Origin: Magnetococcales bacterium
GTDB taxonomy: Bacteria; Pseudomonadota; Magnetococcia; Magnetococcales; JADGAQ01
Reading direction: 5' to 3'
Assembly: GCA_015231925.1 (NCBI GenBank)
Contig: JADGAQ010000002.1
Location: 4,791 to 68,790, forward strand
DNA: 64,000 nucleotides
Shown: piece by piece, positions 16,329 through 62,531 of the stretch
Layout: every line of letters starts with the position of its first letter
Numbering within the stretch: the first letter of the stretch is position 1
Notes under the pieces: generated by a model
Seen by the model: only the letters and a program-made list of their open reading frames with translations
Told to the model about the DNA's origin: nothing
Databases searched by the model: none
Made by a program: the position numbers and the translations under genes

Positions 16329-18440
16329 ATGGACCCGAAAGACATGCACAAGGCCCTGGCCCACTTGCGTCAGGGAGCGGCGGCGGAAGCTCTGGCGGAG
16401 TTTCGCAAGCTGCTGCAACTCCACCCCCATCCGGCGGAACTGCTCTATCACGCCGGGGTGGCGGCCCATCAGGCCGGAGAGGCGCGGGAAGCGCTGCACT
16501 ACCTGGAAAAGGCGGCGCACAAAGCCCCGGAAGTGGCGGAAATCCAGTTCAGCCTGGCCACGGTGCTTTTCGACCTGGGCCGGGAGACGGACGCGGAAGA
16601 GGCCTATCGACGCGCCATCCACGGCAATCCCAAACTGGAACGCGCCCATTTCCGCCTGGGCGAACTGACCCTGCAACGCGGCAACGCCATCGAGGCGATC
16701 CGCCACTTCAAAGCCTCCCTGCAACTGGCTCCGGGACGGGTGGAAACCCTGTTCGGACTGGGCACCGCCCTGGTGGCCGAAGGCCGCTTCACCGGGGCGC
16801 TTCCCGTGGTGCGGGAAGGCATCGCCCTGGGCGACGGCCGCTTTTTGAATCTGCTGGCCCAACTGCTGCCCTGGATCGATCCACCCCGGGAAGAGAACGC
16901 CGCCCTGCAGAAAGAGGTGCTGATTCTGCTGGAACGGCGTCTGACAGACGCTCAACTTCTGATGCCGGTGGTGCTGGAACTGTTGCGTCAGGACCGGCAA
17001 CTGGCGGCTCTGCTGGCTCTGGGCGACGTGACATCGGTGCTGGAGGACAACTCCCTGGAGACGTGGTGGCGGGAAGCCCTGCGGGGGGAACGGGAAGAGG
17101 CCGCCCTGGAACATCCCCTGCTGCGGGCCATCCTGCCGAGAGGACTGCTGGCGGCGGGAGACTGGGAACGGGCCCTGACCAACCTGCGCGCCCTCTGGCT
17201 GGCGGAAATGCGGCATCGGGATGACGACTGGCGTTGCCCGCCGGCGCTGCAACCCCTGCTGCTGGCCCTGGCCCTGCACTGTTTCCATGGGGGGTACGCC
17301 TGGTTCGAAACGGAACAGGAACGGCAGTGGATCGGCGAGGAGCAGGATCGACTGGTGCGCAACGGTCCCGCCTATCCGGCGGAACGCTGGGTGATGCTGG
17401 CCTGCTACCGGGTGTTTCACCGCATTCCGGGTCTGGTGGACGCTTTGCCGGACCATCCGGTTCCGTTGCTCAAGGAGTTGTTGCGTCATACGGTGATGGA
17501 GCCATTGGAAGAAGAGCAGGAGATGCCGCACATCCCTTTGGCCACCAGCCAGATGCCGGGACTCACCTGCGCGGTGCGGGAGCGTTACGACGATCTGGCC
17601 CATCCCCGCTGGCTGCCGCGTTTTCCGCTGCTGCCTTCCGCCATGCCCGGTCTGGAAGCCTGGCTGGCCCAATGCTGTCCCCGGGTGCCCCTGGCCGATT
17701 GGCGTCCCGTCAATCCCCTGCAGGTATTGGTGGCCGGTTGCGGCAGCGGCGAAGAGACCATCCGGCTGGCGGCGCGTCTGCCGTCGGCCCGACTGCTGGC
17801 CGTGGACGACAACTGCTCCGCATTGGCCTACGCCCGCCGGGCCGCCCGTCTTCTGGGGGTGGAAAACGTGCGTTTCGCCCAGGCGGATCTCTCCCGGCTG
17901 GGGGAGTGGCAGGAGAACTTTCACCTGATCGTGGGAGGTGAAAAGCTCCTGTCGGGAACCGACGCCAGCGTTCTGTGGCGCAGTCTGGTGGAGCTGCTGG
18001 CTCCGGGGGGCATCCTGCGGCTGACGATGGAGAGCGAACGGGGTCTCAAGGAGCGTCATCGCCTGCGGGAGTGGATCGCCAAACACGGCGATCTGCCGAC
18101 GGCGGCGGGATTGCGTCAATTGCGGCGCACCCTGCTGGATCAACCCGGTCTCTGGCCCGGATTGCGTCATTCGCCGGAGTTTTACAGCCTGCCGGGCTGC
18201 CGGGAGCTGTTATTTTCGGAAAGTGGCCGGGGTTTTCGCCTGCCCACCATCGCCGCCATGTCCATCGAACTGGGCCTGACGGTACTGGGCCTGGAACTGG
18301 AAGACCCCCGCCTCATGCCCCGCTACCGGGGACGTTTTCTGGAGGACGAAACCGGCACCGATCTGCTGCTGTGGGACCGCTTCGAGGAGGAGACCCCTCT
18401 GGGCAGCCACTATCGCATCTGGTTCCAGGAAGGGAATTGA
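16329..18440 (+). CDS. TPR-repeat protein with C-terminal class I SAM-dependent methyltransferase domain
   Basis: N-terminal TPR-like repeats (AEEAYRRAIHGNPKLERAHFRLG...). The SAM motif VLVAGCGSGEETIRLA...LLAVDDN lies near aa 480. Confidence 0.65.
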   Translation: MDPKDMHKALAHLRQGAAAEALAEFRKLLQLHPHPAELLYHAGVAAHQAGEAREALHYLEKAAHKAPEVAEIQFSLATVLFDLGRETDAEEAYRRAIHGNPKLERAHFRLGELTLQRGNAIEAIRHFKASLQLAPGRVETLFGLGTALVAEGRFTGALPVVREGIALGDGRFLNLLAQLLPWIDPPREENAALQKEVLILLERRLTDAQLLMPVVLELLRQDRQLAALLALGDVTSVLEDNSLETWWREALRGEREEAALEHPLLRAILPRGLLAAGDWERALTNLRALWLAEMRHRDDDWRCPPALQPLLLALALHCFHGGYAWFETEQERQWIGEEQDRLVRNGPAYPAERWVMLACYRVFHRIPGLVDALPDHPVPLLKELLRHTVMEPLEEEQEMPHIPLATSQMPGLTCAVRERYDDLAHPRWLPRFPLLPSAMPGLEAWLAQCCPRVPLADWRPVNPLQVLVAGCGSGEETIRLAARLPSARLLAVDDNCSALAYARRAARLLGVENVRFAQADLSRLGEWQENFHLIVGGEKLLSGTDASVLWRSLVELLAPGGILRLTMESERGLKERHRLREWIAKHGDLPTAAGLRQLRRTLLDQPGLWPGLRHSPEFYSLPGCRELLFSESGRGFRLPTIAAMSIELGLTVLGLELEDPRLMPRYRGRFLEDETGTDLLLWDRFEEETPLGSHYRIWFQEGN

Positions 18441-18789
18441 GGTTTCGGGAAGATAACCGTTCCGCTTGACGAAGGTTTGGGGGGATTATCCCCCTTGACA
18501 TAGGGTGTTGTTTGCCGGTGTTTATGATATATATTATTTTTGATTCCGCATCAATCGCCTTGTTGCGGGATAACTCTTTCGGTCAAAGATTATGCCATCA
18601 TTTTGAGTCACATTATTTATCAGCAGGATCAAGAGCCGCCTGTTCTTTCATCCGGCGCCGTATTTCAATTGAAATGGCTGTTTTGATGGTATACAACGCC
18701 TTATCAGGAGCCTGCGGCGCGGGTTCCGGCGGCTGAACAGAATAATTATCCAATCGATTTCGTTCCTCCCACTATTGGGAAGGAGTGCC

Positions 18790-21312
18790 ATGAATATTCA
18801 GAATGCCAACCTCTTGGAAGCGTCGAGCCGCGTGGCTTTCGCGGCTCTGGTGCATGATCTGGGAAAGTTCGCCGAACGCGCCGAGATGGCCGTTGCCAAG
18901 GCGGAAATAGATCAGAGGAAAAAAGATTATTGTCCAAAAGGTTCTTCAAAATACACCCACGCCCACGCCGCCTATTCCGCCCTGGCCCTACAGGCTCTCA
19001 AGGGGATGCTGCCCGACTTCCAATCGGGAGACATGTTCCCTTTCGACACGTCGAACGAAACCCTGATCGCCGCTGCCGCCGGGCATCACGAGCCCAAAAC
19101 GTCCCTGCAACGCATCGTGGCCATCGCCGACCGCCTGGCCTCGGGATTCGAGCGCAGCAACTTCACAGAATACGAGCGACTCCAGGAAGGAGATGCCCCC
19201 AACGGTGTGGGACTGCATCGCGCCCGGCAATGGCCGATGCTGGAGACCATTTATCCGGATCAGCAGAATTTGAAGGAACCCAAACAACGTTTCCCCCTGA
19301 AGGCCCTGGCTCCGGAAACCCTTTTCCCCGGAGGGTGGAATCCGGGAACTCCAGACGAGGCCAAGGCCGAGTACCGGGAGCTGTGGGACGCTTTCATCTC
19401 CAAGTTGGAAACCCTCTCCCATCGCAACCGTCTACCCTTGTGGCTCGACCATTTCGACAGCCTGTTCCTCACCTTCACCCACGCCATCCCCTCGGCCACG
19501 GTGAGTCGTGAGAATGGACGTTTCACCAAAATCCCCACCGATGTCTCGCTTTACGACCACTCCAAGGCGGTGGCGGCTTTGGCGGTGGCGCTGTGGCGTT
19601 ATCACCTGGAAAACGGCACGGTGGAGGAGGTCTTTTCCAAGTCCAAATGGAACCACTGGGACGAACACGACGTAGCGGAATTTCTGCTGATTCAGGGTGA
19701 CTTCTCCGGCATTCAGGCCTTCATTTTCGACAGCGCGGAATCCACCTCCAAGGCGGCCAAACGGTTGCGGGGTCGCTCCTTCATGGTTTCGCTGCTGACG
19801 GAGCTGGCGGCGTTGAAGGTGCTGGAGACCCTGGAGCTGCCGTCCACCAGCCAGATCATCAACGCGGCGGGCCGGTTTCTCATCGTGGCTCCCAATCGGG
19901 AGACGGTGCAGCAAAAACTGGAAGGGGTGCGTCGCGAGCTGGACGAGTGGTTTTTGCAGCAAACCTTCGGGCAAAGCGGCATCGCTCTGGTGACCACGGA
20001 GGCCAGCCGGCAGGATTTCCATAAAGAGAGGTTCGCCGCCCTGATGGATCGGTTGTTTGTCGATGCCCAGCGCCGTAAACGGCAGCGGTTTGGCCTGTGC
20101 GGCGAGACACCTCCTGCACCGATCTTCGAAGCGGTGGACTATCCCAACGGGCCCTGCGTCGTGGATGGACACAAACCCGGAGAGATCCTGGCGGAGGGCA
20201 AATACCGCTGTCGGCTGTGCAACGATCAGATCACGGCAGGTGATCAACTGGTCAAGCAGAATCTCCTGTTGATCGGATACACCGTTCCGCAAGAATTACC
20301 CGCCCTGGAAGCCAGCTATTTCGGCTATCGGGTTGCTTTCGCCAGAGAAGAGAAAGGTGGGGATTGGCTGCGGGTGTGGGATTTCGCCCTGCCCGAAGCG
20401 GATGGGAAGACTCCCTTGTGGAACGGCTACGCCCGGCGGGCCATCAATGCCCATGTGCCCCGGAATGAGTCGGGCGAACTCCTCGATTTCGAAACGATTG
20501 CCAAAACGGCCATTGTGCCGGATGAATCGGGCAATCCTCGCGGTGTGGCCGCTCTGGGCATTCTCAAAGGCGATGTGGACAATCTGGGAGCGATTTTCCG
20601 CAAGGGGCTGGAGCATCCCACCTTTGCCCGCATGGCGGGTTTGAGCCGACAGGTCAATGCCTTTTTCGCCATCTGGCTGCCCTGGTGGTGTTCCAAAGAG
20701 TTTCCCAATACCTACACGGTCTTCGCCGGGGGGGATGACTTCTTTCTCATCGGCCCCTGGCTTGAACAGATTCATCTGGCGCGGGAGATTTGCAAAGCCT
20801 TGAGGCTATACGGCGGGAAGAATCCTAAGGTGCATCTTTCCGCCGGTCTGGTGATGACCAAACCGGACCTGCCGGTTCCCGCTTTGGACAGCCTTGCGGA
20901 GGAGGCGTTACAACACGCCAAGAACCATGCTGACAAAACCAAGAACGCCATCACCTGCTGGAACCGCACCGTCTCCTGGCAGGTTTTCGAGGAGATGATG
21001 CAGGCGGAAGAAGAGCTGACAACCCTGACGGCTCTGCTGGCCGAAGAGAAGGTGGAGATGAGTTCCGGCTATCTCTACTCCCTGTTGGATCTTTGCGACA
21101 GGGCGGAAAGCCCCCGCCCGGAAGATCAGCTCTGGCGCTCCTGGTTCGTCTACCGCACCTGGCGATTCGTGGTGGATCGCCTGCCGGAAGAAAAGCGGGA
21201 GCCATATTACAAGGATGAGTTTGTCGCCAAGATCGGCAAGCGGCTCCTCTGCCGCAGCGGCGATTACAAAATAGCCCTGTTCACCCATCTTTATCAGCGA
21301 CGGGAGGCGTGA
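18790..21312 (+). CDS. cas10: Type III CRISPR Cas10/Csm1
   Basis: HD domain (ALVHDLGKF, AAGHHE, IADRLASG), first palm domain (LLIQGDFSGIQAFIF), Zn-binding Cys cluster (CVVDGH...CRLC) and cyclase motif FAGGDDFFLIGPW. ATG 18790 follows GGAAGGAG; the track start at 18775 is TTG. Confidence 0.92.
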   Translation: MNIQNANLLEASSRVAFAALVHDLGKFAERAEMAVAKAEIDQRKKDYCPKGSSKYTHAHAAYSALALQALKGMLPDFQSGDMFPFDTSNETLIAAAAGHHEPKTSLQRIVAIADRLASGFERSNFTEYERLQEGDAPNGVGLHRARQWPMLETIYPDQQNLKEPKQRFPLKALAPETLFPGGWNPGTPDEAKAEYRELWDAFISKLETLSHRNRLPLWLDHFDSLFLTFTHAIPSATVSRENGRFTKIPTDVSLYDHSKAVAALAVALWRYHLENGTVEEVFSKSKWNHWDEHDVAEFLLIQGDFSGIQAFIFDSAESTSKAAKRLRGRSFMVSLLTELAALKVLETLELPSTSQIINAAGRFLIVAPNRETVQQKLEGVRRELDEWFLQQTFGQSGIALVTTEASRQDFHKERFAALMDRLFVDAQRRKRQRFGLCGETPPAPIFEAVDYPNGPCVVDGHKPGEILAEGKYRCRLCNDQITAGDQLVKQNLLLIGYTVPQELPALEASYFGYRVAFAREEKGGDWLRVWDFALPEADGKTPLWNGYARRAINAHVPRNESGELLDFETIAKTAIVPDESGNPRGVAALGILKGDVDNLGAIFRKGLEHPTFARMAGLSRQVNAFFAIWLPWWCSKEFPNTYTVFAGGDDFFLIGPWLEQIHLAREICKALRLYGGKNPKVHLSAGLVMTKPDLPVPALDSLAEEALQHAKNHADKTKNAITCWNRTVSWQVFEEMMQAEEELTTLTALLAEEKVEMSSGYLYSLLDLCDRAESPRPEDQLWRSWFVYRTWRFVVDRLPEEKREPYYKDEFVAKIGKRLLCRSGDYKIALFTHLYQRREA

Positions 21313-21693
21313 GTGAATACTACCGGAATTATTCTGAACAATATTCAGAAAGATTTATTTGATGGGGTCGCCGAGAGGGTAGCCAAGGATCTGGCTGCAA
21401 ATCGGCAATCCAATAAACCTACTCAATTGCGTCGTTTTTATGACGAGATTTGTCAATGGACGGAAAAAGTCGATGGCAAGGACGAGACTTACAAAACATT
21501 AAGCCCATTCATTCATATGCTGAACGCCAAGACAGCCTATGCCTTTGGTCGAAACAAACTGGTTGATGCCAACTTTGTAGAATTGATCCGTTACTGCCTG
21601 AACCAGGTCAATAATGCCGAAACCCTCGGCAATTTCAAACTCTTCATGGAAGCGGTGATGGGATTTTATAAATACGAGCGGCCCGGCAACTGA
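21313..21693 (+). CDS. csm2: Type III-A small subunit Csm2
   Basis: 126 aa, helical. Has the Csm2-like TQLRRFYDEI and NAKTAYAFGR motifs. The GTG start abuts the cas10 stop. Confidence 0.8.
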   Translation: MNTTGIILNNIQKDLFDGVAERVAKDLAANRQSNKPTQLRRFYDEICQWTEKVDGKDETYKTLSPFIHMLNAKTAYAFGRNKLVDANFVELIRYCLNQVNNAETLGNFKLFMEAVMGFYKYERPGN

Positions 21694-21703
21694 GGAACAG
21701 ACC

Positions 21704-22420
21704 ATGAAACTGACCCACATCGACGAAATCTCCGGGCAACTCCTTCTGTGCAGCGGGTTGCATATCGGCAGCGGCAACACCGAAATGCACATCGGCGGTT
21801 CGGACAATCCCGTGATCAAACATCCCCACACCAACCGACCCTACATTCCGGGCAGCAGCCTGAAAGGCAAAATCCGCAGCCTGCTGGAATGGCGTGTTGG
21901 GGGCAAGGCGATACTCGACGGAAAACCGATGAGTTATGGCAAACTTCAACAGCTTCCGGACGATGACCGCCCGGATGCCCTGACCATTCTCAAACTGTTC
22001 GGCAATTCCGCCGGTGAGAAGTTAAAAGATGAAGTGTACCAGGAAATCGGCCTTCCCCGCTTGATCTTTCGGGACTGCATGCTTTCGGATGAATGGGTAA
22101 CATCCGTTAATAACAAAAAGCTTTCTCTGACTGAAACCAAGATGGAAAACACCATCAACCGGGTTAGCGGTGTGGCGGAACACCCCCGCAGCATGGAGCG
22201 GGTTCCGGCGGGAGCGATATTCAATTTTTGCCTGGTGATCCGGCGATTCGGCGAGGAGGAGGAATTGCACGATCTCCTTTTCAAGGGTTTGAAACTGCTG
22301 GAGATGGACAGCCTGGGTGGTTCGGGTTCCCGCGGTTACGGCCGGGTTGAATTCAAACTGCATGCCCCGTGGCAGGAGAAACTCGACAAGACCAACCCCT
22401 GGAGTGACAACGGCAAATGA
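21704..22420 (+). CDS. csm3: RAMP protein Csm3 (Cas7 family)
   Basis: LHIGSG...PYIPGSSLKGKIRSLLEW and C-terminal GGSGSRGYGRV glycine loop. Confidence 0.9.
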   Translation: MKLTHIDEISGQLLLCSGLHIGSGNTEMHIGGSDNPVIKHPHTNRPYIPGSSLKGKIRSLLEWRVGGKAILDGKPMSYGKLQQLPDDDRPDALTILKLFGNSAGEKLKDEVYQEIGLPRLIFRDCMLSDEWVTSVNNKKLSLTETKMENTINRVSGVAEHPRSMERVPAGAIFNFCLVIRRFGEEEELHDLLFKGLKLLEMDSLGGSGSRGYGRVEFKLHAPWQEKLDKTNPWSDNGK

Positions 22421-23322
22421 ACACCCTGCTGATCACCCTGGAGCCCTTGACGGCTTTTGCCACGCCGTTGCACGGGGACACCCTCTTCGGGCAACTCTGC
22501 TGGGCGTTGCGCAATCGTCAGGGCGAAGCCTGGCTGGTGGAGCGGCTGCGGGGATACACCGCCAACGACCCCTTTCTGGTGGTTGGGGATGCGTTTCCCG
22601 AAGGGCACTTTCCCCGTCCCCGAAAACCCTCGAAGGGTTTTCAGAGCAAGGAAAATCGTCAGCAGGTCTGGTTGCCCCGCCGGGAGTGGGGATTGGACTG
22701 TGTGACTGAGGAGGCGATCTGGGGCAAGGACAAAACCCGCATCGAGCGGCCCCAGCCCCACAACAGCATCCATCGCCTGAGCGGAACCACGGGCGAGGGA
22801 GAGCAAGGGTTTGCGCCGTTCGTCACCCGGCAAATCTGGTTTCCCGAAGGAGCCCGCCTGGAGGTGTGGCTGCTTCACGATGCGGATCGCTTGCCGGAGG
22901 AGACGCTGCACACCGCGTTGAGCGATATCGGACAGTTGGGTTTTGGCAAGGAGGCTTCGAGGGGACTCGGCAAATACCGGGTGACTGCCATGCAACCCAC
23001 CCCCCTGCCCCGACAGGAAGGCTGCAACGCCTGGCTGACCCTGGGAAGTTGCGCCCCCCAAGGGTGCGGTTTCGACGCCGCCAACAGTTTTTATGAGCTT
23101 TTCACCCGTTTCGGTCGTCACGGGGATTGGCCGGCGCTGAGCGGACAACCCTTCAAGAAACCGATCCTGATGGCCGGTGCCGGCGCGGTGCTGACCCCCG
23201 CCGTGTGGCGGGATGTCCGCTTCGTCGGGCAGGGTTTGGGTGGCGAGGGCAAGCTGTCGAAGGTCATTGCGGATACCGTGCATCAAGGCTACTGCCCGGT
23301 AGTGGGCATTCGGGTGGATTGA
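22417..23322 (+). CDS. csm4: RAMP protein Csm4 (Cas5 family)
   Basis: The N-terminus LEPLTAFATPLHGDTLFGQLCWAL is typical of Csm4. Has the G-rich motif IGQLGFGKEASRGLGKY. ATGA overlap with csm3. Confidence 0.85.
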   Translation: MNTLLITLEPLTAFATPLHGDTLFGQLCWALRNRQGEAWLVERLRGYTANDPFLVVGDAFPEGHFPRPRKPSKGFQSKENRQQVWLPRREWGLDCVTEEAIWGKDKTRIERPQPHNSIHRLSGTTGEGEQGFAPFVTRQIWFPEGARLEVWLLHDADRLPEETLHTALSDIGQLGFGKEASRGLGKYRVTAMQPTPLPRQEGCNAWLTLGSCAPQGCGFDAANSFYELFTRFGRHGDWPALSGQPFKKPILMAGAGAVLTPAVWRDVRFVGQGLGGEGKLSKVIADTVHQGYCPVVGIRVD

Positions 23323-23335
23323 CGGGAGGGAAAAG

Positions 23336-24508
23336 ATGGCTGAACGATTTTTACAATCCCATCGTCTGGTGATTTCCACCCTTTCACCAGTCCACATCGG
23401 TTGCGGGGAGGATTACGAACCCACCAACTACGTTATTGATGACAACAATAATACGTTGCACTATTTCGAACCAAGCGACCTTTTGACGCTGCCGCAATGG
23501 CCGGAACGGCGTCAAGAATTGCTCAACCTGGTTACCCGACAGGGAGGAAGCCAGGTGGTTCGCGGCATACAGACCTTTTTCCACAAACTGCGCAAGGAAA
23601 TCGCCCCCCTTTCCAGACATCAGGTAAGCGTTTCCCAAGGAATTATGGACTCTTACAAGGAACGTATCGGGCAAGTGGCGCAGCGGGAGTTCGGCAACAA
23701 GGAGACCCTCAACTCTCTGGGAATCCAACGCGGGTATTACCACCCCCACTCCGGTCAACCGATTCTTCCCGGCAGCAGTTTGAAAGGAGCCGTGCGCACG
23801 GCCTTGCTGAATCACGCCCATGGGGGCCAGAAGTTGAAACAGCCTGCTCTGGCGGAGCAACGCACCAATTGGAAAAAGCTCTCCCCGCTTGATGTGACGT
23901 TACGGAATTTTCATGGAGATTTTCACGCCGATCCCCTGCGCCTGATAAAGATTACCGACAGCACCCCATTCCCCACCGAGAAGATCAAACCGCTCATCTG
24001 CTTTGCCGTCAATCGGAGCAAACGGCCCGACGATACGAAAGAGCGGCCCTTTCAAATGAGGGAATGCCTTCCCGGAATGGCCAAAAAGGCTGTAGAGGCC
24101 GAGTTGATTTTGCATGATGTGGGTGCGCTGCGCTCCGAGAAGTTACCGGCCGTGCGTCCGACCATGGAAGAGATTGTGAAACGCTGCAATGACTATTATC
24201 TGCATCGGTTGCAGGAGAGTTTGAAACTGCCGGGTGTAGATAAAGAATGGATCAACAAGATTCAAAGGTCTTTAGATAGAAATATCTGGAGGCTTCAAGA
24301 GGGAGACTCTTTTTTGCTGCGTCTGGGCATGGGCAGCGGGTCCGAAAGCATTACGCTCGATGGAGCAAGACATATTCATCAGCCACAACATAGACAGTGG
24401 GTGGAAAAGCCCTCGACGGTCTGGCTGTTTTCCGAGATGGGCAAGGATGCAAGGGAGGGGCTGTTACCTTTTGGCTGGGTGCTGGTGGCCTGGGATAAAC
24501 GGCCATGA
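23336..24508 (+). CDS. csm5: RAMP protein Csm5 (Cas7 family)
   Basis: STLSPVHIGCGE and ILPGSSLKGAVRTALL motifs. It sits in the csm5 position of the operon. Confidence 0.85.
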   Translation: MAERFLQSHRLVISTLSPVHIGCGEDYEPTNYVIDDNNNTLHYFEPSDLLTLPQWPERRQELLNLVTRQGGSQVVRGIQTFFHKLRKEIAPLSRHQVSVSQGIMDSYKERIGQVAQREFGNKETLNSLGIQRGYYHPHSGQPILPGSSLKGAVRTALLNHAHGGQKLKQPALAEQRTNWKKLSPLDVTLRNFHGDFHADPLRLIKITDSTPFPTEKIKPLICFAVNRSKRPDDTKERPFQMRECLPGMAKKAVEAELILHDVGALRSEKLPAVRPTMEEIVKRCNDYYLHRLQESLKLPGVDKEWINKIQRSLDRNIWRLQEGDSFLLRLGMGSGSESITLDGARHIHQPQHRQWVEKPSTVWLFSEMGKDAREGLLPFGWVLVAWDKRP

Positions 24509-25446
24509 CGATCTATTCCCTTCCCCTGGCGCGATACCGTCTGGAGTGGCGGGTGGAGACACCGTTGCGCTTGCCGGAGTATGCCGGATCAGCGTTGCGG
24601 GGGGTGTTTGGCGCGGCTCTGCGGGGGCTGGCCTGTATCACTCGGGAAAGGGAGTGTCCGGGTTGCGGCCTTTTGCGCACCTGCCCCTATTCCCTGATCT
24701 TCGAAACCCCTGCCCCACTGGTGGCCGAAGGGGAAAAAGGCTTTGCGGTGACACCCAATCCCTACATTATCGAGCCGCCGCCCTGGGGGGTGCGGGAGTA
24801 TGGTGTCGGGGAGGCGTTGGTGTTTCATCTGGTGCTGGTGGGACGGGCGTTGGGCCATTTGCCCCTGCTGATATTGGCCTGGCAACGCGCCCTTGGCCGG
24901 GGTGTCGGGGCGGGAGATGGCAAAGCCGAGTTGCAACAGGTGGTGCTGGAAAGGTCGAACGGCGAAGAGGTGGTTTTTCGGCGGGAGGAAGGGCTGCTGC
25001 GCGACCACGACACGCAGGTTGTCGTGCCATCCTGGCCGGGACAGGAGGCTCTCACTCTGCATCTGCTCACCCCGGTCCGCATTCAGCGCGACGGTTCGCC
25101 TCTCGGTCCGGGACGCCTCACGCCACGGGATCTGCTGGTGGGGTTGATGCGTCGTATCGGTCAGATGGCTCATCTACATGCGGATGTCGACCCGGAGATC
25201 GATTACTCGGAGCTGTCCCGGCAGGCGGGTTTGATTCCGTGTCATGGCAACCTCGCCTGGCGGGACTGGACACGCCGTTCCGCCCGACAGCAGCAAACCA
25301 TGGCCTTGGGCGGTGTCGTCGGTCGATGGACTTTGACGGGTGATCTGCAACCTTTCTGGCCGTTTCTTTATCTGGGGCAGTGGTTGCATGTGGGCAAAAA
25401 TGCCACCTTCGGGTTGGGTGGGTACCAACTTGAAACGCAGGTTTGA
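24505..25446 (+). CDS. cas6: Cas6-family CRISPR endoribonuclease
   Basis: 313 aa. C-terminal G-rich loop HVGKNATFGLGGYQL and N-terminal CPGC...C cluster. ATGA overlap with csm5. It is the last gene before the leader. Confidence 0.75.
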   Translation: MTIYSLPLARYRLEWRVETPLRLPEYAGSALRGVFGAALRGLACITRERECPGCGLLRTCPYSLIFETPAPLVAEGEKGFAVTPNPYIIEPPPWGVREYGVGEALVFHLVLVGRALGHLPLLILAWQRALGRGVGAGDGKAELQQVVLERSNGEEVVFRREEGLLRDHDTQVVVPSWPGQEALTLHLLTPVRIQRDGSPLGPGRLTPRDLLVGLMRRIGQMAHLHADVDPEIDYSELSRQAGLIPCHGNLAWRDWTRRSARQQQTMALGGVVGRWTLTGDLQPFWPFLYLGQWLHVGKNATFGLGGYQLETQV

Positions 25447-25471
25447 TGAATATCGACGAGGATGAGGCGTT

Positions 25472-25507
25472 TGTTAATCATCGCTCCGTTTGATAGGGGA
25501 TTGTAAC
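25472..25507 (+). repeat. Orphan degenerate CRISPR repeat
   Basis: tgTTAA-TCATCGCtCCGtTTGATAGGGGATTGtAAC vs the consensus CCTTAAGTCATCGCCCCGCTTGATAGGGGATTGAAAC. It shares the CGCTCCG variant with the degenerate terminal repeat of the array. Confidence 0.75.
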
Positions 25508-25679
25508 GGTTCTGACGGGGGAGCTTCAAGCCAGAATGGCGGAAGAGGTTAAAGAGCGCATCCGTGGGACGGACGATGCGGTGCAGATTTATCCGCTTTG
25601 TGCCAATTGTGCGGCCAAGGTGCAACGTTTGGGCAACGCCTGTGAGGCTCCTGGTGAGGAGGTGGTATTCGTGGTTTAA
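25497..25679 (+). pseudogene. cas2: cas2 3' remnant
   Basis: The open frame after the stop at 25494-25496 translates to ..VLTGELQARMAEEVKERIRGTDDAVQIYPLCANCAAKVQRLG.., which matches the Cas2 C-terminal pattern (D-x-hydrophobic-x-IY-x-L-C...C...G). The N-terminal half is absent and its place is taken by the orphan repeat. Not in the ORF track because it is under 60 aa from the ATG at 25536. Confidence 0.55.
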
Positions 25680-25721
25680 TGGCAGGCAGGGGATTTTTCA
25701 GAAAAATTATTTTTTTATCTT

Positions 25722-25779
25722 TTGACCTTCAATATGTTTCCTTTAAATAGTAAAAAAAGAAAATGTTCTGTCCGTGGCC
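25722..25779 (+). repeat. TIR60 unit (forward orientation) in the CRISPR leader region
   Basis: TTGACCTTCAATATGTTTCCTTTAAATAGTAAAAAAAGAAAATGTTCTGTCC, matching the family consensus TTGACTTTCAATATGTTATCTTTTAAGTATCAAAAAAAGGAAATGTTCTATCCTTTGAC. Confidence 0.8.
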
Positions 25780-25786
25780 TTTTCCT

Positions 25787-25815
25787 TTGATTATCCTTTT
25801 CAAATAATATATAAT
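25787..25815 (+). promoter_or_regulatory. Candidate sigma70 promoter for the CRISPR array
   Basis: TTGATT (25787-25792), a 17-bp spacer, then a perfect TATAAT (25810-25815). It lies about 215 bp upstream of the first repeat and faces the array. Confidence 0.55.
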
Positions 25816-25841
25816 ATCTAGCATCGATGTATCGAGATGTA

Positions 25842-25883
25842 GTCGTAACCCCGAAAACCCGATTTTCGACCGGGGGTTACGAC
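25842..25883 (+). other. Long bulged hairpin in the leader
   Basis: GTCGTAACCCCGAAAA-cccga-TTTTCG(accgg)GGGGTTACGAC: an 11-bp outer stem plus a 5-6-bp inner stem. Confidence 0.6.
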
Positions 25884-26029
25884 AAGACCCAACCCGTTGG
25901 AAAATAAGAATGTTTACAATCCCGCACTTTCTTTTCACCAGAAAAACCGGGGGCACGGTATGCCAGATGAAACGGTTACGAAAATGTGGTCAATTTCCGA
26001 TGGAAAATCAGGTAAATGTAGCATGGTCT

Positions 26030-27533
26030 CCTTAAGTCATCGCCCCGCTTGATAGGGGATTGAAACAGTTCGATATCGGAGCGGGTCTCGAAGTCCAAGT
26101 GTAAAACGGCCTTAAGTCATCGCCCCGCTTGATAGGGGATTGAAACTGTTTGAAAGCTTCCAGAAGGTCGCTCAACGCTCCCCTTAAGTCATCGCCCCGC
26201 TTGATAGGGGATTGAAACGTTGTCCATCAATAAAGACCAGTGCGCGACGAATTTCCCCTTAAGTCATCGCCCCGCTTGATAGGGGATTGAAACAGTTGAT
26301 TGCCTCGTCCATCCGGGTGATGGCTGCATCTCCTTAAGTCATCGCCCCGCTTGATAGGGGATTGAAACACATCGAACATACGTGTCTTCATAGGTGTAAC
26401 AAGCGCATCCCTTAAGTCATCGCCCCGCTTGATAGGGGATTGAAGCCGTCAAGAGGGGTGTCGCGTCACTCACCGTGGCTCGGATCTCCTTAAGTCATCA
26501 CCCCGCTTGATAGGGGATTGAAACACCAGATGCCCCGGCAGGATCCCGGACCGATAGACGCACCTTTAAGTCATCGCCCCGCTCGATAGGGGATTGAAAA
26601 CACAAACTTTACAGCGTTCGCTACGTTATCACAAAACTCTTTAAGTCATCGCCCCGCTCGATAGGGGATTGAAACACGTCAGCGTCTTGGATGATTTCGA
26701 GTTCCTTCACTTCCTGATCTTTAAGTCATCGCCCCGCTCGATAGGGGATTGAAACGGCAACCCAACATCATCCACCCCGACATTCTCCACCCGATGCTTT
26801 AAGTCATCGCCCCGCTCGATAGGGGATTGAAACAGAAAGAAAAAGCGAGCGCCGCTGGTTGTTTCGACATAGTGCCTTTAAGTCATCGCCCCGCTCGATA
26901 GGGGATTGAAACGCCTCACGGTCAATCCCATCGACCGCCCGAAGGCACCAGACTTTAAGTCATCGCCCCGCTCGATAGGGGATTGAAACCTACGCTCCGC
27001 CGGATTGGCTGTATCCATGGCCATTGCCTTTAAGTCATCGCCCCGCTCGATAGGGGATTGAAACCACTTCCGGCCCCCTCGGCGAAGGTGTAATCCTTCA
27101 CCAGTTCCTTAAGTCATCGCCCCGCTCGATAGGGGATTGAAACTCAACCAGTGCAATGATTGACTCGTCAACATACTCTACAATCCTTAAGTCATCGCCC
27201 CGCTCGATAGGGGATTGAAACGATGCGCCCTGCGCGCCGGTCAAAACGCCGTTTTCGGCTTCCTTAAGTCATCGCCCCGCTCGATAGGGGATTGAAACTT
27301 TTTTCGTTTGGCATGCGCCTGAAATATTCTTCCGCAGTTGCCTTAAGTCATCGCCCCGCTCGATAGGGGATTGAAACTCTGCCGGGCAGGCGGCCGGATC
27401 CCACAGTGTGCCGATACACCTTAAGTCATCGCCCCGCTTGATAGGGGATTGAAACTCAGGGTCGTAGCCGAAATCTGAACAAAAATCCTCGAAAGACCTT
27501 AAGTCATCGCTCCGCTTGATAGGGGATAAACCG
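26030..27533 (+). CRISPR. CRISPR array with 20 repeats and 19 spacers
   Basis: 37-bp repeat C[C/T]TTAAGTCATCGCCCCGCT[T/C]GATAGGGGATTGAAAC; spacers are 35-43 bp. First repeat is 26030-26066. The last repeat, 27497-27533, is degenerate (..CGCTCCGCTTGATAGGGGATAAACCG). The 3' ATTGAAAC matches the usual 8-nt crRNA 5' handle. The degenerate repeat distal to the cas genes places the leader at 25680-26029. Confidence 0.97.
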
Positions 27534-27588: not shown

Positions 27589-27816
27589 ATGAACACCTCC
27601 GCCAAACTCCTTGATGCCATGCAGACCAACCCCACCGACTGGAGGATCACCCAATTGCAGACGGTGGCCCAGCAGTACGGGATCACCTGGCGGCACAAGG
27701 GGACAAGCCATTGTTATTTCATGCGTGAAGACGGAGCCGTCCTTTCTGTGCCAGCCCAGCGCCCCATCAAACCGATCTACATCAAAAAATTCATTCTGTT
27801 CGTGAAAGGGGGCTGA
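27589..27816 (+). CDS. hicA: HicA-family mRNA interferase toxin
   Basis: 75 aa. ...WRHKGTSHCYF...LSVPAQRPIKPIYIKKFILFV matches the HicA pattern (GSH..F, VP..kpIKP.Y.K.f). ATG 27589 is preferred over the TTG at 27553. Confidence 0.7.
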   Translation: MNTSAKLLDAMQTNPTDWRITQLQTVAQQYGITWRHKGTSHCYFMREDGAVLSVPAQRPIKPIYIKKFILFVKGG

Positions 27817-27818
27817 CC

Positions 27819-28193
27819 GTGTATAAACCCGAAGATTACCCCTTCGAAATCAGGCCACTGGATCCGGAAGAAGGCGGCGGCTACCTGATCTCCTTCCCGG
27901 ACTTCTGCGAATGCCTCTCGGACGGCGAAACACCGGCGGAAGCGATTGAAAACGGCTTGGATGCCCTGCGAGGCCTGATCACACTCTTTGTGGAAGAGGG
28001 ACGCCCCCTACCAGCACCCCTGTCCGGCGGCTTTTCCGGAAAATTCGTGGCCAGAGTTCCCAAAACCCTGCATGCCCATCTCTCCGCCAGAGCCAAAGCG
28101 GAAGGGGTCAGTCTGAATACGCTGGTGGTGGCCCTGATCGCCGAAGGACTGGGAAGACGGGAGGCGGGAGAGATCCGAAGCCGTTCTGCATGA
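27819..28193 (+). CDS. hicB: HicB-family antitoxin with C-terminal RHH DNA-binding domain
   Basis: HicB fold N-terminus (FEIRPLDPEEGGGYLISFPDFCECLSDGETPAEAIENG). C-terminus FSGKFVARVPKTLHAHLSARAKAEGVSLNTLVVALIAEGL. The GTG start is 2 nt after the hicA stop. Confidence 0.8.
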   Translation: MYKPEDYPFEIRPLDPEEGGGYLISFPDFCECLSDGETPAEAIENGLDALRGLITLFVEEGRPLPAPLSGGFSGKFVARVPKTLHAHLSARAKAEGVSLNTLVVALIAEGLGRREAGEIRSRSA

Positions 28194-30387: not shown

Positions 30388-30839
30388 GTTGCCGTTCAAT
30401 ATGTTTCCTTTAAGTATCAAAAAAAGGAAATGTTCTGTCCGTTGACGTGGCCTTGAGCGGGTCGAAGCCAAAAGGAAAGCGCAGCAACCCGATTCCCCGC
30501 ACGACCTTGGTGAACACTTCGACCCGCCGGAGGGGGCAAAGGGAGGGACTCACCCTCCCCCTCCTTGAACTCACCACCCATAATAAGCCATAGCCTGTTC
30601 CAAGCAAAACTTTCGGATCAAACTCAAATCGCGGCGGAATGGCCACGTCCCAAAAGGATGGGGAGGATGAAGCCCTCCCCTTGCCCCCTCCGGCGGGTCG
30701 AAGATGGGACAGGGTTTGGAAGACGGTGCGGAGTTGGGCACTTCTCCTTTTGGCTTCGACCCGCCAAAGGCCAAGGCCACGTCAAAGGACAGAACATTTC
30801 CTTTTTTTGATACTTAAAGGCAACATATTGAACGGCAAC
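30388..30839. mobile_element. TIR60-bounded composite with nested-palindrome cargo
   Basis: Forward TIR60 30388-30446 and reverse TIR60 30775-30839. The interior holds long inverted repeats (GGGTCGAAGCCAAAAGGA.. / ..TCCTTTTGGCTTCGACCC; GGGGGCAAAGGGAGGGACTCACCCTCCCC / GGGGAGGATGAAGCCCTCCCCTTGCCCCC). It fills the glnS/MBL convergent spacer. Confidence 0.8.
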
Positions 30840-36092: not shown

Positions 36093-36543
36093 TTGACTTT
36101 CAATATGTTATCTTTTAAATATCAAAAAAAGGAAATGTTCTGTCCTTTGACTTTTCGTGACCATTCACTCCTCCTATTTCTCCCCAGCCCCCGAGGGGCC
36201 ATCTGGTCGGGGGGCTGGACGGAAACGGATGGGGCAAAGGACAGAACATTTCCTTTTTTGGATACGTATACCGTGTCTACTTTGGAATACATAATTTTTC
36301 TGTATCTGTTCAAGTATACGGGGGTTTGGAGGGGATTACCCCCCCCCAACGGGTCCAGGGCAGCGCCCTGGGACTTTTCCTTTCGCCGTTGACTTCGTCA
36401 TATCGCGCTGCGCGGGATCCTGAATAGTTATAGAAAAATTACGCATTCCAAAATGGACACGGTATAAATGAATGAAAAATAAAAAGTCAAAGGATAGAAC
36501 ATTTCCTTTTATTGATACTTAAAAGATAACATATTGAAAGTCA
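36093..36543. mobile_element. TIR60-bounded composite carrying a family-D element
   Basis: Forward TIR60 36093-36152, internal partial reverse copy ~36233-36270, second inverted pair ATACCGTGTC.../...GACACGGTAT, reversed family-D core ~36302-36431, and reverse TIR60 36483-36543. Confidence 0.8.
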
Positions 36544-47057: not shown

Positions 47058-47657
47058 GTGGACAATCGGCTCGAAACGGATAGAGGCGTTATTTCGTACC
47101 GCTTGTGTCGTCATCCGCGCCGGCAGCGTATGGCTGTTGTGGTGACTGCTGCCGGAGAGGTGGAACTGCGGCTGCCGATGCGTTGTTCCCTGTTGCGGGC
47201 GCAAGGCTTTCTGGCCAGTCAGACCGAGTGGATTTTGGGGCGGTTGGCTGCGCTGCCCGAGCTGGAAACCCGATCTCCGCCGGTATTGACTTATTTGGGG
47301 CGTTCGGTACCTCAAGGCGGGTCTGACACGGAAGTCTGGTTGAAGGATCGGGCACGGCGGTATTTGCCGGCGCGGCTCTTTTTTCTGGCCCGGAAGCATG
47401 GTTTGGAGCCGCAGCGGGTGCAGGTCCGGGATCAACGCAGTCGTTGGGGGAGTTGTTCTTCTCGGGGCACTGTCAGTCTCAACTGGCGTTTGATTCAGTT
47501 GCCGCGACGATTGTCGGATGCGGTGCTGCTGCATGAGTTGGCCCATTTGGTTCATTTGAACCATGGTCCCGGGTTTCAACGGTGGTTGGATGGGGCGGAT
47601 CCGGGATGGCGGGCGCATCGGCGGGAGTTGCGCGGGCTGTGGAATGAGGTGAGGTGA
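47058..47657 (+). CDS. YgjP/DUF45-family (M48-like) zinc metallopeptidase
   Basis: HExxH in VLLHELAHLVHLNHGPGF, and SRWGSCSSRGTVSLNWRL, which is typical of DUF45. GTG 47058 follows AAGGGA; the track start at 47040 is TTG. Confidence 0.75.
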   Translation: MDNRLETDRGVISYRLCRHPRRQRMAVVVTAAGEVELRLPMRCSLLRAQGFLASQTEWILGRLAALPELETRSPPVLTYLGRSVPQGGSDTEVWLKDRARRYLPARLFFLARKHGLEPQRVQVRDQRSRWGSCSSRGTVSLNWRLIQLPRRLSDAVLLHELAHLVHLNHGPGFQRWLDGADPGWRAHRRELRGLWNEVR

Positions 47658-47710
47658 GGTGGGATGGGGTGAGGTGAGGTGAGGTGAGGTGAGGTGGGGT
47701 GGGGTGGGGT
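47646..47710 (+). repeat. G-rich pentanucleotide microsatellite
   Basis: (GAGGT)3-GGGAT-GGGGT-(GAGGT)5-(GGGGT)3. The stop codon of the DUF45 gene (47655-47657) lies inside the first block. Confidence 0.9.
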
Positions 47711-47725
47711 GATCTTTTCAGTCAT

Positions 47726-48241
47726 ACGGGGGTCCGGGGGGGATTATCCCCCCCGGCGGGGTTCGGGGCGGAGCCCCGAGGTGTTGCCGTTGCGGTCCGC
47801 TGCAGCCAATGAAATCCCAAAAGTCCCCACCCGCACCCAACGGATTTATCGCAGCGGACCGCGGGGGGGCAAGGGGGGGCCTCATCCCCCCCTCCTTGAA
47901 CCCGCCCCACGACGAGAAGCAGGGCCAACCCTCCGCATCGAGCCTCACGGCGAACGGCAACGGCGAACGGCAACGGATGGGGGGATGAGGCCCCCCCTTG
48001 CCCCCCCGCGGTCCGCTGCGTTTCTCAAGATCGCATTTGGAATCGGCTTTTTGTGCTTCCATTGGCTGCAGCGGACCGCAACGGCAACAGACACGGCAAC
48101 AGACACGGCAGCAGACACGGCAGCAGACACGGCAGCAGGCACGGCAGCAGACACGGCAGCAGACACGGCAACAGACACGGCAACACCTCGGGGCTCCGCC
48201 CCGAACCCCGCCGGGGGGGATAATCCCCCCCGGACCCCCGT
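47726..48241. repeat. Nested palindromic element, copy B
   Basis: Same termini as copy A (ACGGGGGTCCGGGGGGGATTATCCCCCC ... GGGGGGGATAATCCCCCCCGGACCCCCGT) and the same inner GGGGGCAAGGGGGGGCCTCATCCCCCC inverted pair. Confidence 0.85.
48081..48186 (+). repeat. 12-bp tandem repeat inside palindrome copy B
   Basis: ACGGCA[A/G]CAG[A/G]C in about 8.8 copies. Other copies of the element have only ACGTCAACGTCAAC or GTCGACGTGGCC at this position. Confidence 0.9.
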
Positions 48242-58565: not shown

Positions 58566-58630
58566 TTTGCCGTTTCACCCGGGTTTCCGAGTTTTCGGAA
58601 ACCGGGGATTTTCAGACAACGCCAATTTTT

Positions 58631-58790
58631 TTGACGTTCAATATTTTTTCTTTAAGTATCAAAAAAAGAAAATGTTCTATTTTTTGACGTTCAATATTTT
58701 TCTTTAAGTATCAAAAAAAGAAAATGTTCTATTTTTTGACGTTCAATATTTTTCTTTAAGTATCAAAAAAAGAAAATGTTCTATCCTCTA
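58631..58790 (+). repeat. Tandem triplication of the TIR60 unit
   Basis: Three head-to-tail copies of TTGACGTTCAATATTTTTCTTTAAGTATCAAAAAAAGAAAATGTTCTATTTT, with TTGAC starts at 58631, 58684 and 58736 (53- and 52-bp periods). Confidence 0.92.
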
Positions 58791-58987: not shown

Positions 58988-59046
58988 AGTCAAAGGATAG
59001 AACATTTTCTTTTTTTGATTTTTAAAAGATAAATATTAAAAGTCAA
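58988..59046 (-). repeat. TIR60 unit (reverse) closing the 58631-59046 composite
   Basis: GAGTCAAAGGATAGAACATTTTCTTTTTTTGATTTTTAAAAGATAAATATTAAAAGTCAA. Confidence 0.8.
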
Positions 59047-62217: not shown

Positions 62218-62255
62218 CTTTCCTCTTTTCCGAAGGGTGGGTAATATTAAATTTT

Positions 62256-62531
62256 TTGACTTTCAATATTTTATCTTATAAATATCAAAAAAAAGGAAAT
62301 GTTCTATCCTTTGACTTTTTCATTTATCATTTATTTAGATCGTTTTGAACCATTGCTTCTCCTTTCGCTGTTGACGTTCAAACCCCATGGGATCCAGGGG
62401 GCGCAGGGACTTGTCCTTTGATTGTTGATACGGTCACGCTACGCTACGCAGGGTTCTGAATCGTTACGGAAAGTCAAAGGATAGAACATTTCCTTTTTTT
62501 GATACTTAAAAGATAAAATATTGAAAGTCAA
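62256..62531. mobile_element. TIR60-bounded composite with reversed family-D-like cargo
   Basis: Forward unit 62256-62318 and reverse unit 62471-62531. The cargo contains GGATCCAGGGGGCGCAGGGAC and ends in ..TTCTGAATCGTTAC. Confidence 0.8.

What the first reader, a model, noticed from the sequence alone, without database searches (positions are those of the whole stretch)
26030..27533. The array is a mosaic of repeat-variant blocks (A7-B7-C4-A2), inconsistent with simple leader-end growth
Two polymorphic repeat positions define the blocks. R1-R7 carry CC...GCTTGATA. R8-R14 carry CT...GCTCGATA. R15-R18 carry CC...GCTCGATA. R19-R20 carry CC...GCTTGATA again. Polarised acquisition copies the leader-proximal repeat, so the youngest block would have to revert at both sites to match the oldest. 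Recombination with a second array, or a block insertion, is more parsimonious. Private mutations cluster at the A/B junction: R6 ends GAAGC, R7 has CATCACCCC and R8 ends GAAAA. Both block-defining polymorphisms fall outside the CCCC/GGGG stem and the ATTGAAAC handle, which fits selection for Cas6 processing.
Basis: seen in the sequence. Interest (0 to 1): 0.6.

Follow-up and report, generated by a model that had tools for sequence, protein, structure and literature searches.

The report
Mosaic repeat variants in CRISPR array
A 20-repeat type III-A CRISPR array from an uncultured magnetotactic bacterium carries its repeat variants in blocks whose order cannot come from growth at one end alone; exchange between repeats most likely made it, and this kind of pattern is already documented as common.

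Summary
There are 20 repeats of 37 nt at 26030-27533, in blocks A7-B7-C4-A2 defined by positions 2 and 21. Private mutations sit in R6, R7 and R8.

Orientation is secure. The array lies downstream of cas10-csm2-5-cas6, and R1 keeps leader motifs at the distances conserved in relatives. All eight complete related arrays have T at position 21, so type A is ancestral and the leader-end A block cannot descend from B by copying.

The window comes from a Magnetococcales MAG. A conspecific MAG (backbone 99.2% identical) has an array at the same site. That array carries the fourth haplotype (T2,T21). Its cas6 region is only about 83% identical. Each strain has a rearrangement scar at a repeat's 3' end. 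In the window, csx1, cas1 and the 5' part of cas2 are deleted.

Exchange at repeats is the best explanation. I cannot separate replacement of the leader end, block insertion, gene conversion and ectopic acquisition. Each block transition spans 113-116 nt, so misassembly is unlikely.

The pattern is a known kind: Ou & McInerney (2022) found apparent reversals or flip-flops in about half of 1,095 arrays with trackable repeat mutations. Interest is low to moderate.

The parts
18790..21312 (+). cas10/csm1, the type III-A signature gene
   Evidence: NCBIfam TIGR02578, 625 bits against a cut-off of 170. The exact product is annotated Cas10/Csm1 in the source MAG.
21313..24508 (+). csm2, csm3, csm4 and csm5 (21313-21693, 21704-22420, 22417-23322, 23336-24508)
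   Evidence: NCBIfam TIGR01870, TIGR02582, TIGR01903 and TIGR01899, all above their cut-offs.
24505..25446 (+). cas6, the pre-crRNA endoribonuclease
   Evidence: Pfam PF10040, E = 2.5e-16. It is 100% identical to the protein annotated Cas6 of a Magnetococcales MAG. Divergence from the conspecific strain is uneven: identity at 4-fold sites is about 80% in the N-terminal half and about 50% in the C-terminal half.
25446..25477 (+). Probable remnant of the csx1 (Cas02710) start
   Evidence: An ATG overlaps the cas6 stop as in relatives, with weak similarity to csx1 5' ends. This is an inference.
25471..25507 (+). R0, an orphan degenerate repeat at the deletion junction
   Evidence: It matches the consensus at 29 of 37 positions, and at 27 of 30 over positions 8-37. 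It is followed directly by cas2 codon 37.
25509..25679 (+). cas2 C-terminal fragment (residues 37-92)
   Evidence: tblastn gives 56/56 amino acids identical to Cas2 of L001. DNA identity is 94%, and the differences beyond the junction are synonymous. No cas1 or csx1 is found anywhere in the window.
25680..26029 (+). Leader. Contains a copy of a dispersed AT-rich element (25722-25769), a promoter-like site (25787-25815), a hairpin CGTAACCCC...GGGGTTACG (25844-25881) and the motif GGTTACGAAA (25974-25983).
   Evidence: The motif lies exactly 56 nt upstream of R1 in the window and in L002, L003, L004 and L010. The hairpin ends 148-149 nt upstream in the window, L002 and L004. The promoter scan is.
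26030..26524 (+). Block A: R1-R7 (C2, T21), leader-proximal. Private mutations in R6 (A36G) and R7 (G13A).
26564..27064 (+). Block B: R8-R14 (T2, C21). Private mutation in R8 (C37A).
27107..27377 (+). Block C: R15-R18 (C2, C21)
27419..27533 (+). Trailer block A: R19 (type A) and R20 (type A, with C15T and a degenerate 3' end)
27589..28193 (+). hicA-like gene (27589-27816) and hicB (27819-28193), the toxin-antitoxin pair flanking the trailer
   Evidence: Pfam HicB, E = 1e-10. In the conspecific strain the array ends inside this hicB.

Best explanation
This is a genuine type III-A CRISPR array whose present order was produced by at least one exchange at the repeats, not by leader-end growth alone. 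The history I consider most likely has four steps. An ancestral A-type array (C2, T21) grew at the leader. T21C arose in the first repeat and was copied, giving block C. C2T then arose and was copied, giving block B. Finally, homologous recombination in a repeat, most simply in the 3' 16 nt of R7, joined an A-type leader-proximal cassette (leader plus R1-R7) from another A-type array onto the B-C-A array. The donor could be a co-occurring strain or a second, possibly tandem, array in the same genome. Insertion of the B-C block into an A-type array is an equivalent version of this. Shown here: the block structure, the polarity, the ancestral state, the four haplotypes in the species, the patchwork divergence of the locus and the rearrangement scars at repeats. 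Inferred: the identity of the donor, the position of the crossover, and whether spacers moved together with the repeats.
For: 1. Polarity. The order is cas10-csm2-5-cas6, then a cas2 remnant, leader and array. The leader motif at -56 and the hairpin at -148 from R1 are conserved in relatives. The degenerate repeat is at the far end. Rfam CRISPR-DR10 matches full length on the + strand.

2. Ancestral state. All eight complete related arrays have T21, and seven of the eight have C2.

3. Both apparent reversions coincide at one boundary, R7/R8, where R8 also carries A37. Going from B to A by copying would therefore need two or three simultaneous changes.

4. A conspecific MAG, GCA_015229045.1, has GlnS 566/567 identical and 7.8 kb of backbone at 99.2%. 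It has an array at the same site with the repeats CCTGAAGTC...GCTCGATA and CTTTAAGTC...GCTTGATA. All four combinations of sites 2 and 21 therefore exist in the species, which fails the four-gamete test.

5. Divergence between the two strains across the locus is a patchwork. The cas6 region is 81-83% identical (identity at 4-fold sites is about 80% in the N-terminal half and about 50% in the C-terminal half), the cas2 fragment 94%, the leader about 65% and the hicB fragment 93%, against a backbone of 99.2%.

6. Repeats take part in rearrangements in both strains. In the window R0 abuts cas2 codon 37, and in L007 the last repeat abuts the inside of hicB.

7. Related arrays show comparable non-monotonic patterns. 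L004 and L005 have G7 islands at R25-26, R38 and R48-49. L006 has T1 in R2-R4 only.

8. Literature. Such patterns are frequent and are attributed to recombination or mid-array insertion (bioRxiv 10.1101/2022.05.19.492656). Recombination between arrays has been detected in Streptococcus thermophilus (PMC4524480).
Against: No donor array was found. There is no second array in the 64 kb. The repeat is absent from the genome, metagenome and viral contig collections that I could scan. The two visible spacers of the conspecific array are not shared with the window, so no conflict in spacer order could be demonstrated.

Spacer length and GC content do not differ between blocks. No hybrid repeat marks the A/B junction. 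Kupczok et al. found that recombination contributes little in most species they studied. The cluster of private mutations in R6-R8 is not explained by a simple crossover.
Confidence: 0.55

Rival explanations
1. Ectopic (internal) spacer acquisition. Spacers were integrated at internal repeats, and each event duplicated the local variant repeat. The C21 block, and then the T2 block within it, would have expanded inside an otherwise A-type array, with no transfer between arrays.
For: Ectopic acquisition is documented in type II-A arrays (PMC7999890; PMC5338259). Ou & McInerney list mid-array insertion as one explanation for reversal patterns. The nesting of T2 (R8-R14) inside C21 (R8-R18) is what local expansion would give. 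The paired G7 repeats in L004 (R25-26, R48-49) look like single local duplications.
Against: It needs about ten internal integrations, all within one block, alongside seven canonical ones at the leader. The sequence upstream of R8 does not resemble the leader end, matching at 1 of 7 positions. The conserved -56 leader motif argues for leader-anchored integration. Internal expansion cannot explain why L004 has the derived T7 state at its trailer end. It is not documented for arrays associated with type III-A systems.
Confidence: 0.15
2. In-place reset. Gene conversion of the leader-proximal repeat from an A-type repeat, such as R19/R20 of the same array or the array that left R0, restored the ancestral sequence without moving spacers. 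S1-S7 were then acquired normally.
For: A-type templates exist in the same array (R19, R20). The degenerate R0 is T21. A single short conversion tract would change both sites at once. The intact family-typical leader next to R1 fits continued local acquisition. The cas2 remnant has only synonymous differences from the relative, so loss of the adaptation genes is recent.
Against: The tract would have to span positions 2-21 or more within only 37 nt of homology, flanked by unique spacers, which makes for poor recombination substrates. There is no direct evidence. It does not explain the private mutations in R6-R8.
Confidence: 0.12
3. Point mutation only. T21C and C2T arose and were propagated, and both later reverted in the first repeat. 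Any intermediate units would have been lost by spacer deletion.
For: Both changes are C/T transitions. C15T recurs independently in R20, in R0 and in L008 R16, so recurrent transitions do happen in this repeat family. Spacer deletion is reported to be far more frequent than mutation (PMC12839519 abstract), so intermediates could vanish.
Against: Only two propagated mutations occurred in 19 acquisition steps across 37 sites. Two specific back-mutations at exactly those sites, ending at one boundary, is improbable by orders of magnitude (my own rough estimate is 1e-4 or less). The same argument is made for a two-site case by Ou & McInerney.
Confidence: 0.05
4. Assembly or strain-mixture artefact. 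The contig is a chimera of arrays from co-occurring strains, or the variant bases are errors.
For: The source is a short-read MAG. Conspecific strains with different arrays exist. The relative's assembly breaks at its array (L001 ends in the leader, and L007 starts inside the array).
Against: The variants are consistent across runs of 7, 7, 4 and 2 repeats, so random error is excluded. Each block transition (R7-S7-R8 is 113 nt, R14-S14-R15 is 116 nt, R18-S18-R19 is 115 nt) fits within one Illumina read if reads were at least about 125 nt; I did not check the read length, and the study used HiSeq 2000/2500/4000. R7 and R8 carry private mutations that make them unique. The likely source study used metaSPAdes defaults (PMC7602337), and the largest default k of 55 (my own knowledge) exceeds the 37-nt repeat. 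Attribution to that study rests on the accession series and is an inference. A related mosaic array is identical in two separate deposits, L004 and L005.
Confidence: 0.08

Closest known systems
Non-canonical repeat-mutation patterns in CRISPR arrays ('pattern 2', apparent reversal; Ou & McInerney 2022, bioRxiv 10.1101/2022.05.19.492656)
   Same: A repeat mutation is propagated through two or more duplications and the array then returns to the original base towards the leader. The paper includes a two-site case, discussed as needing either simultaneous back-mutations or recombination.
   Different: Here two sites are nested and share one boundary. The ancestral state is fixed by outgroups. A conspecific array supplies the fourth haplotype. 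The array is type III-A, from an uncultured Magnetococcales bacterium.
Recombination between homologous CRISPR arrays (Kupczok, Landan & Dagan 2015, PMC4524480)
   Same: The proposed process is the same: exchange of spacer blocks between arrays of strains of one species.
   Different: That work infers recombination from conflicts in spacer order among many strains. Here the inference rests on repeat variants and on locus divergence, and no spacer-order comparison was possible.
[quoted passage not shown] 2017 and 2021; PMC5338259, PMC7999890)
   Same: It would also give arrays whose order is not chronological.
   Different: That is a type II-A system, where a specific spacer misguides the integrase. 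No leader-like sequence lies upstream of R8 here, and the window encodes no Cas1 and only a Cas2 fragment.
Type III-A (Csm) CRISPR-Cas loci of Magnetococcales MAGs (L002-L006, L008-L010)
   Same: They share cas10-csm2-5-cas6 and the same 37-nt repeat family (ATCGCCCC...GGGGATTGARAC), and the leader motifs sit at the same distances.
   Different: The window lacks the Cas_NE0113 gene upstream of cas10, as well as csx1/Cas02710, cas1 and the 5' part of cas2. An orphan repeat sits at the deletion junction.

Membership tests
CRISPR array (type III-A associated) | Regularly spaced, near-identical direct repeats separated by unique spacers of similar length | tested here: met
   There are 20 repeats of 37 nt and 19 unique spacers of 35-43 nt, and no two spacers share a word of 9 nt or more.
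CRISPR array (type III-A associated) | Adjacent cas operon containing cas10/csm1 and csm2-csm5, plus cas6 | tested here: met
   The NCBIfam equivalog models score above their cut-offs. Pfam finds Cas6.
CRISPR array (type III-A associated) | Leader upstream of the first repeat and a degenerate repeat at the trailer end | tested here: met
   A 350-nt AT-rich leader carries family-conserved motifs at -56 and -148. R20 is degenerate.
CRISPR array (type III-A associated) | Adaptation genes cas1 and cas2 present. This is typical of the relatives but not required for the family. | tested here: not met
   tblastn with Cas1, Csx1 and Cas2 of relatives finds only Cas2 residues 37-92 in the window. The rest of the genome could not be examined.
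Rfam CRISPR-DR10 (RF01323) | Score at or above the gathering threshold of 39 bits | tested here: not met
   The best score is 29.8 bits, matching full length on the + strand. The repeat is therefore related to this family but is not a member.
Reversal-type repeat mutation pattern (Ou & McInerney pattern 2) | A variant shared by three or more repeats, contiguous, and followed towards the leader by a return to the original base | tested here: met
   T2 occurs in R8-R14 and C21 in R8-R18, and both return to the ancestral base in R1-R7.
Recombinant CRISPR array in the sense of Kupczok et al. | Conflict in spacer order, or shared spacer blocks, among arrays of conspecific strains | not testable with these tools
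   Only two spacers of the one conspecific array are visible (L007). Neither is shared with the window. The other contigs of that assembly could not be reached.
Recombinant CRISPR array, tested on repeat haplotypes | Four-gamete test on two biallelic repeat sites | tested here: met
   The window has (C,T), (T,C) and (C,C). L007 repeat 129-165 has (T,T). Recurrent mutation is the only alternative explanation for this result.
Ectopic spacer acquisition (Streptococcus thermophilus type) | A leader-like sequence at the 3' end of the spacer preceding the internal integration site | tested here: not met
   The last 7 nt before R8 match the leader end at 1 of 7 positions, and no spacer exceeds 4 of 7. 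The anchoring motif for this system is unknown, so the test is weak.

The most novel reading that the evidence does not exclude
Two independent rearrangement junctions lie exactly at the 3' end of a complete repeat. In the window, R0 abuts cas2 codon 37. In the conspecific strain, the last repeat abuts the inside of hicB. These junctions could be footprints of integrase-type chemistry (Cas1-Cas2) joining a repeat end to ordinary chromosomal DNA. If so, the CRISPR adaptation machinery itself would drive deletions and duplications around the array, including destruction of its own genes, and could generate the mosaic blocks.
Probability: 0.06. Interest if true: 0.65.

Novelty: new member of a known kind. 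Interest (0 to 1): 0.3.

Why it matters
Spacer order is widely read as a chronological record of infections. This array is a clean, well-polarised example in which that reading fails, with two nested marker sites, a known ancestral state and a verified leader. The comparison with a conspecific strain shows that a type III-A locus in an uncultured magnetotactic lineage is a recombination patchwork that has just lost its adaptation and CARF-type (cyclic-oligoadenylate-sensing) accessory genes. This illustrates processes that are already recognised and does not change the current understanding.

Tried and rejected
1. Exact scans for the repeat core (GTCATCGCCCCGCTNGATAGGGGATTGAA) in genome, metagenome and viral contigs gave 0 hits.

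3. Exact look-ups of the window's own Cas6 and Csm3, and of the identical P0001, returned 'not on record'. The remaining 14 kb of the source contig, and the rest of that assembly, could not be read.

4. I searched the protein database with the spurious minus-strand array ORF (FQSPIKRGDDLR...) to fish for arrays in other assemblies. Nothing was found.

5. Clusters at 90% identity for eight proteins of the window (four upstream backbone or cas10 products, three csm proteins and the hicA-like gene) held only the source itself. The left boundary of the diverged region in the conspecific strain is therefore unknown.

6. Protospacer searches found nothing usable. BLAST of the whole array against phages gave no match. 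Against plasmids it gave only chance E. coli hits with E of 0.03 or higher. Six 30-nt spacer cores were absent from IMG/VR. There were no self-matches in the window. The blocks could therefore not be compared by target.

7. Spacer length and GC content by block showed no difference.

8. I rejected the shared C15T of R0 and R20 as a sign of common descent, because the same change recurs in L008 R16.

9. The higher similarity of the cas2 fragment (83% at 4-fold sites) than of cas6 (66%) is not significant on its own, and the N-terminal half of cas6 is about as similar as cas2.

10. I rejected reading position 2 as spacer-derived, because T occurs in seven consecutive repeats.

Full report
**1. 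What is there**

The region 26030-27533 holds 20 direct repeats of 37 nt (consensus CCTTAAGTCATCGCCCCGCTYGATAGGGGATTGAAAC) separated by 19 unique spacers of 35-43 nt.
- R1-R7 have C2 and T21 (type A).
- R8-R14 have T2 and C21 (type B).
- R15-R18 have C2 and C21 (type C).
- R19-R20 are type A again.
- R6 has A36G, R7 has G13A and R8 has C37A.
- R20 also has C15T and a degenerate 3' end.

Contiguity of each variant is far from chance, at 1.8e-4 and 6e-5. Three private mutations falling in three neighbouring repeats has p = 0.018, or 0.002 for straddling the A/B junction. Both of these are post hoc. All three types fold into the same 4-bp stem with the same energy.

**2. Context and polarity**

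Upstream lies a type III-A operon: cas10/csm1, csm2, csm3, csm4, csm5 and cas6. Cas6 is 100% identical to a protein of a Magnetococcales metagenome-assembled genome on a 78-kb contig.

Relatives found through Cas6 share the layout Cas_NE0113 - cas10 - csm2-5 - cas6 - accessory gene(s) - cas1 - cas2 - leader - array. The accessory gene is csx1/Cas02710 in L001-L003 and L006, and Cas_VVA1548 plus an unannotated gene in L004/L005 and L008-L010.

The window's leader (25680-26029) has the motif GGTTACGAAA exactly 56 nt before R1, as in L002, L003, L004 and L010. It also has a hairpin CGTAACCCC...GGGGTTACG ending 148 nt before R1, as in L002 and L004. Together with the degenerate R20 and full-length + strand matches to Rfam CRISPR-DR10 (below threshold), this fixes R1 as the leader-proximal repeat.

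**3. Ancestral state**

All eight complete related arrays have T at position 21, and seven of the eight have C at position 2. Type A is therefore ancestral, which agrees with its place at the trailer. Read from the trailer, the array goes from A to C (T21C), then from C to B (C2T), and then back to A at both sites in one step. R8 carries A37 as well. Copying of the first repeat cannot produce that last step.

**4. A conspecific strain**

The 90% cluster of the window's GlnS contains a second protein, 566/567 identical, from GCA_015229045.1. That is the same assembly as the closest Cas6 relative, L001 (81% amino-acid identity).

Its contig L007 matches the window at 99.2% over 7.8 kb downstream of the array. 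L007 begins inside a CRISPR array at the same chromosomal site. It opens with the last 7 nt of a repeat ending GAGAC. Then comes CCTGAAGTCATCGCCCCGCTCGATAGGGGATTGAAAC, and then CTTTAAGTCATCGCCCCGCTTGATAGGGGATTGAAAC. The last of these has T2 with T21, so all four combinations of the two sites exist in the species. That requires recombination or recurrent mutation.

Across the locus the two strains differ unevenly.

| Segment | Identity between the two strains |
|---|---|
| cas6 region | 81-83% (4-fold sites about 80% in the N-terminal half, about 50% in the C-terminal half) |
| cas2 fragment | 94% |
| leader | about 65% |
| hicB fragment | 93% |
| downstream backbone | 99.2% |

The CRISPR-cas locus has therefore been exchanged piecewise between lineages.

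**5. Scars**

The window has no cas1, csx1 or Cas_NE0113. Between cas6 and the leader lie three things:
- an ATG overlapping the cas6 stop, which is probably the csx1 start;
- a degenerate repeat, R0 (25471-25507; 27 of 30 identical over positions 8-37);
- directly after R0, cas2 codons 37-92, which are 56/56 identical to L001.

Beyond the junction the cas2 fragment differs from L001 only at synonymous sites, so the deletion is recent. In L007 the last repeat is followed directly by the middle of hicB. Both junctions sit exactly at a repeat's 3' end. Repeats at this locus clearly take part in rearrangements. R0 may be a relic of a second, upstream array or of a tandem duplication, but that is an inference.

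**6. Is it an artefact?**

Random error is excluded by the runs of 7, 7, 4 and 2. Each transition spans 113-116 nt (repeat, spacer, repeat), which fits within one Illumina read if reads were at least about 125 nt; I did not check the read length. R7 and R8 are unique sequences.

The MAG series to which the relatives belong was assembled with metaSPAdes defaults (PMC7602337). The largest default k of 55 (my own knowledge) is longer than the repeat. Linking the window to that study is an inference from the accession numbers. A related mosaic array is identical in two separate deposits. Reads were not available, so I leave 0.08 on this rival.

**7. Mechanism**

The best explanation is exchange at repeats with another A-type array. 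This would be either replacement of the leader-proximal cassette, with a crossover in the 3' part of R7, or insertion of the B-C block. I give it 0.55.

The rivals are ectopic acquisition (0.15), in-place gene conversion of the first repeat (0.12), double reversion (0.05) and artefact (0.08). No donor array, shared spacer or protospacer was found, so these cannot be separated.

The cluster of private mutations in R6-R8 remains unexplained. One idea is that these repeats were once array ends, because terminal and proximal repeats of type III-A arrays mutate more often than internal ones: 21.2 and 10.9 against 5.8 per 1000 nt (PMC12839519).

**8. Comparison with what is known**

Ou & McInerney classified 1,095 arrays with trackable repeat mutations. 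The canonical pattern accounted for 40.8%, apparent reversal for 18.1%, and flip-flop patterns for 20.4% and 13.6%. They discussed a two-site case in the same terms.

Among the relatives examined here, L004/L005 show a flip-flop at position 7 and L006 a reversal at position 1. L002, L003 and L008-L010 show only private changes. The window's array is thus a clear new example of a known and frequent pattern.

**9. Verdict**

- Novelty: a new member of a known kind.
- Interest: 0.3.

Noticed in passing
window 25446-25679: Relative to all eight related cas6-bearing loci examined, csx1 (or the equivalent accessory genes), cas1 and the first 36 codons of cas2 are deleted. An orphan degenerate repeat (R0, 25471-25507) sits at the junction and abuts cas2 codon 37 exactly. 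The cas2 remnant differs from the conspecific strain only at synonymous sites beyond the junction, so the loss is recent.
   Followed up: partly
window 18440-18790 and the whole window: The type III-A locus has neither of the two accessory genes seen in relatives (the Cas_NE0113 gene upstream of cas10, and csx1/Cas02710 after cas6). It is reduced to the Csm complex genes plus cas6.
   Followed up: partly
L007 1-330 (GCA_015229045.1): In the conspecific strain the last repeat of the array is fused directly to the middle of hicB (equivalent to window position 28040). A second hicAB pair that is absent from the window follows. The three visible repeats are all different variants.
   Followed up: partly
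window 25844-25881 and 25974-25983; L002, L003, L004 and L010 leaders: Leader elements are conserved at fixed distances from the first repeat. GGTTACGAAA lies at -56, and a hairpin with arms CGTAACCCC/GGGGTTACG and a variable loop ends at -148/-149. These may be docking or regulatory sites for adaptation or transcription.
   Followed up: partly
window 25722-25769, 30389-30436, 30791-30838 (-), 58627-58784 (three tandem copies), 58999-59046 (-), and weaker copies near 36100, 37300 and 62250-62530: A dispersed AT-rich intergenic element of about 50 nt (TTGACNTTCAATAT...AAAAAAAGAAAATGTTCT) contains a possible sigma-70 promoter. One copy lies inside the CRISPR leader, and L001's leader has one as well.
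   Followed up: no
window 24505-25446 compared with L001 92-1039: Divergence of cas6 from the conspecific strain changes abruptly around codon 130-150. Identity at 4-fold sites drops from about 80% to about 50%, which suggests a recombination breakpoint inside the gene.
   Followed up: partly
L004 and L005 13976-17898: A 52-repeat array, identical in two deposits, has the family-ancestral G7 variant as islands (R25-26, R38, R48-49) in a derived T7 background. The trailer end is also T7. This is a flip-flop pattern.
   Followed up: partly
window R20 (27511), R0 (25485); L008 R16: The same C15T change, which keeps the stem through a G-U pair, arose at least three times in this repeat family. It looks like a tolerated, recurrent mutation.
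   Followed up: no
window 47645-47712 and 48081-48182: Two short tandem repeats: TGAGG x 13.6 and ACGGCAGCAGAC x 8.5. I did not examine them.
   Followed up: no
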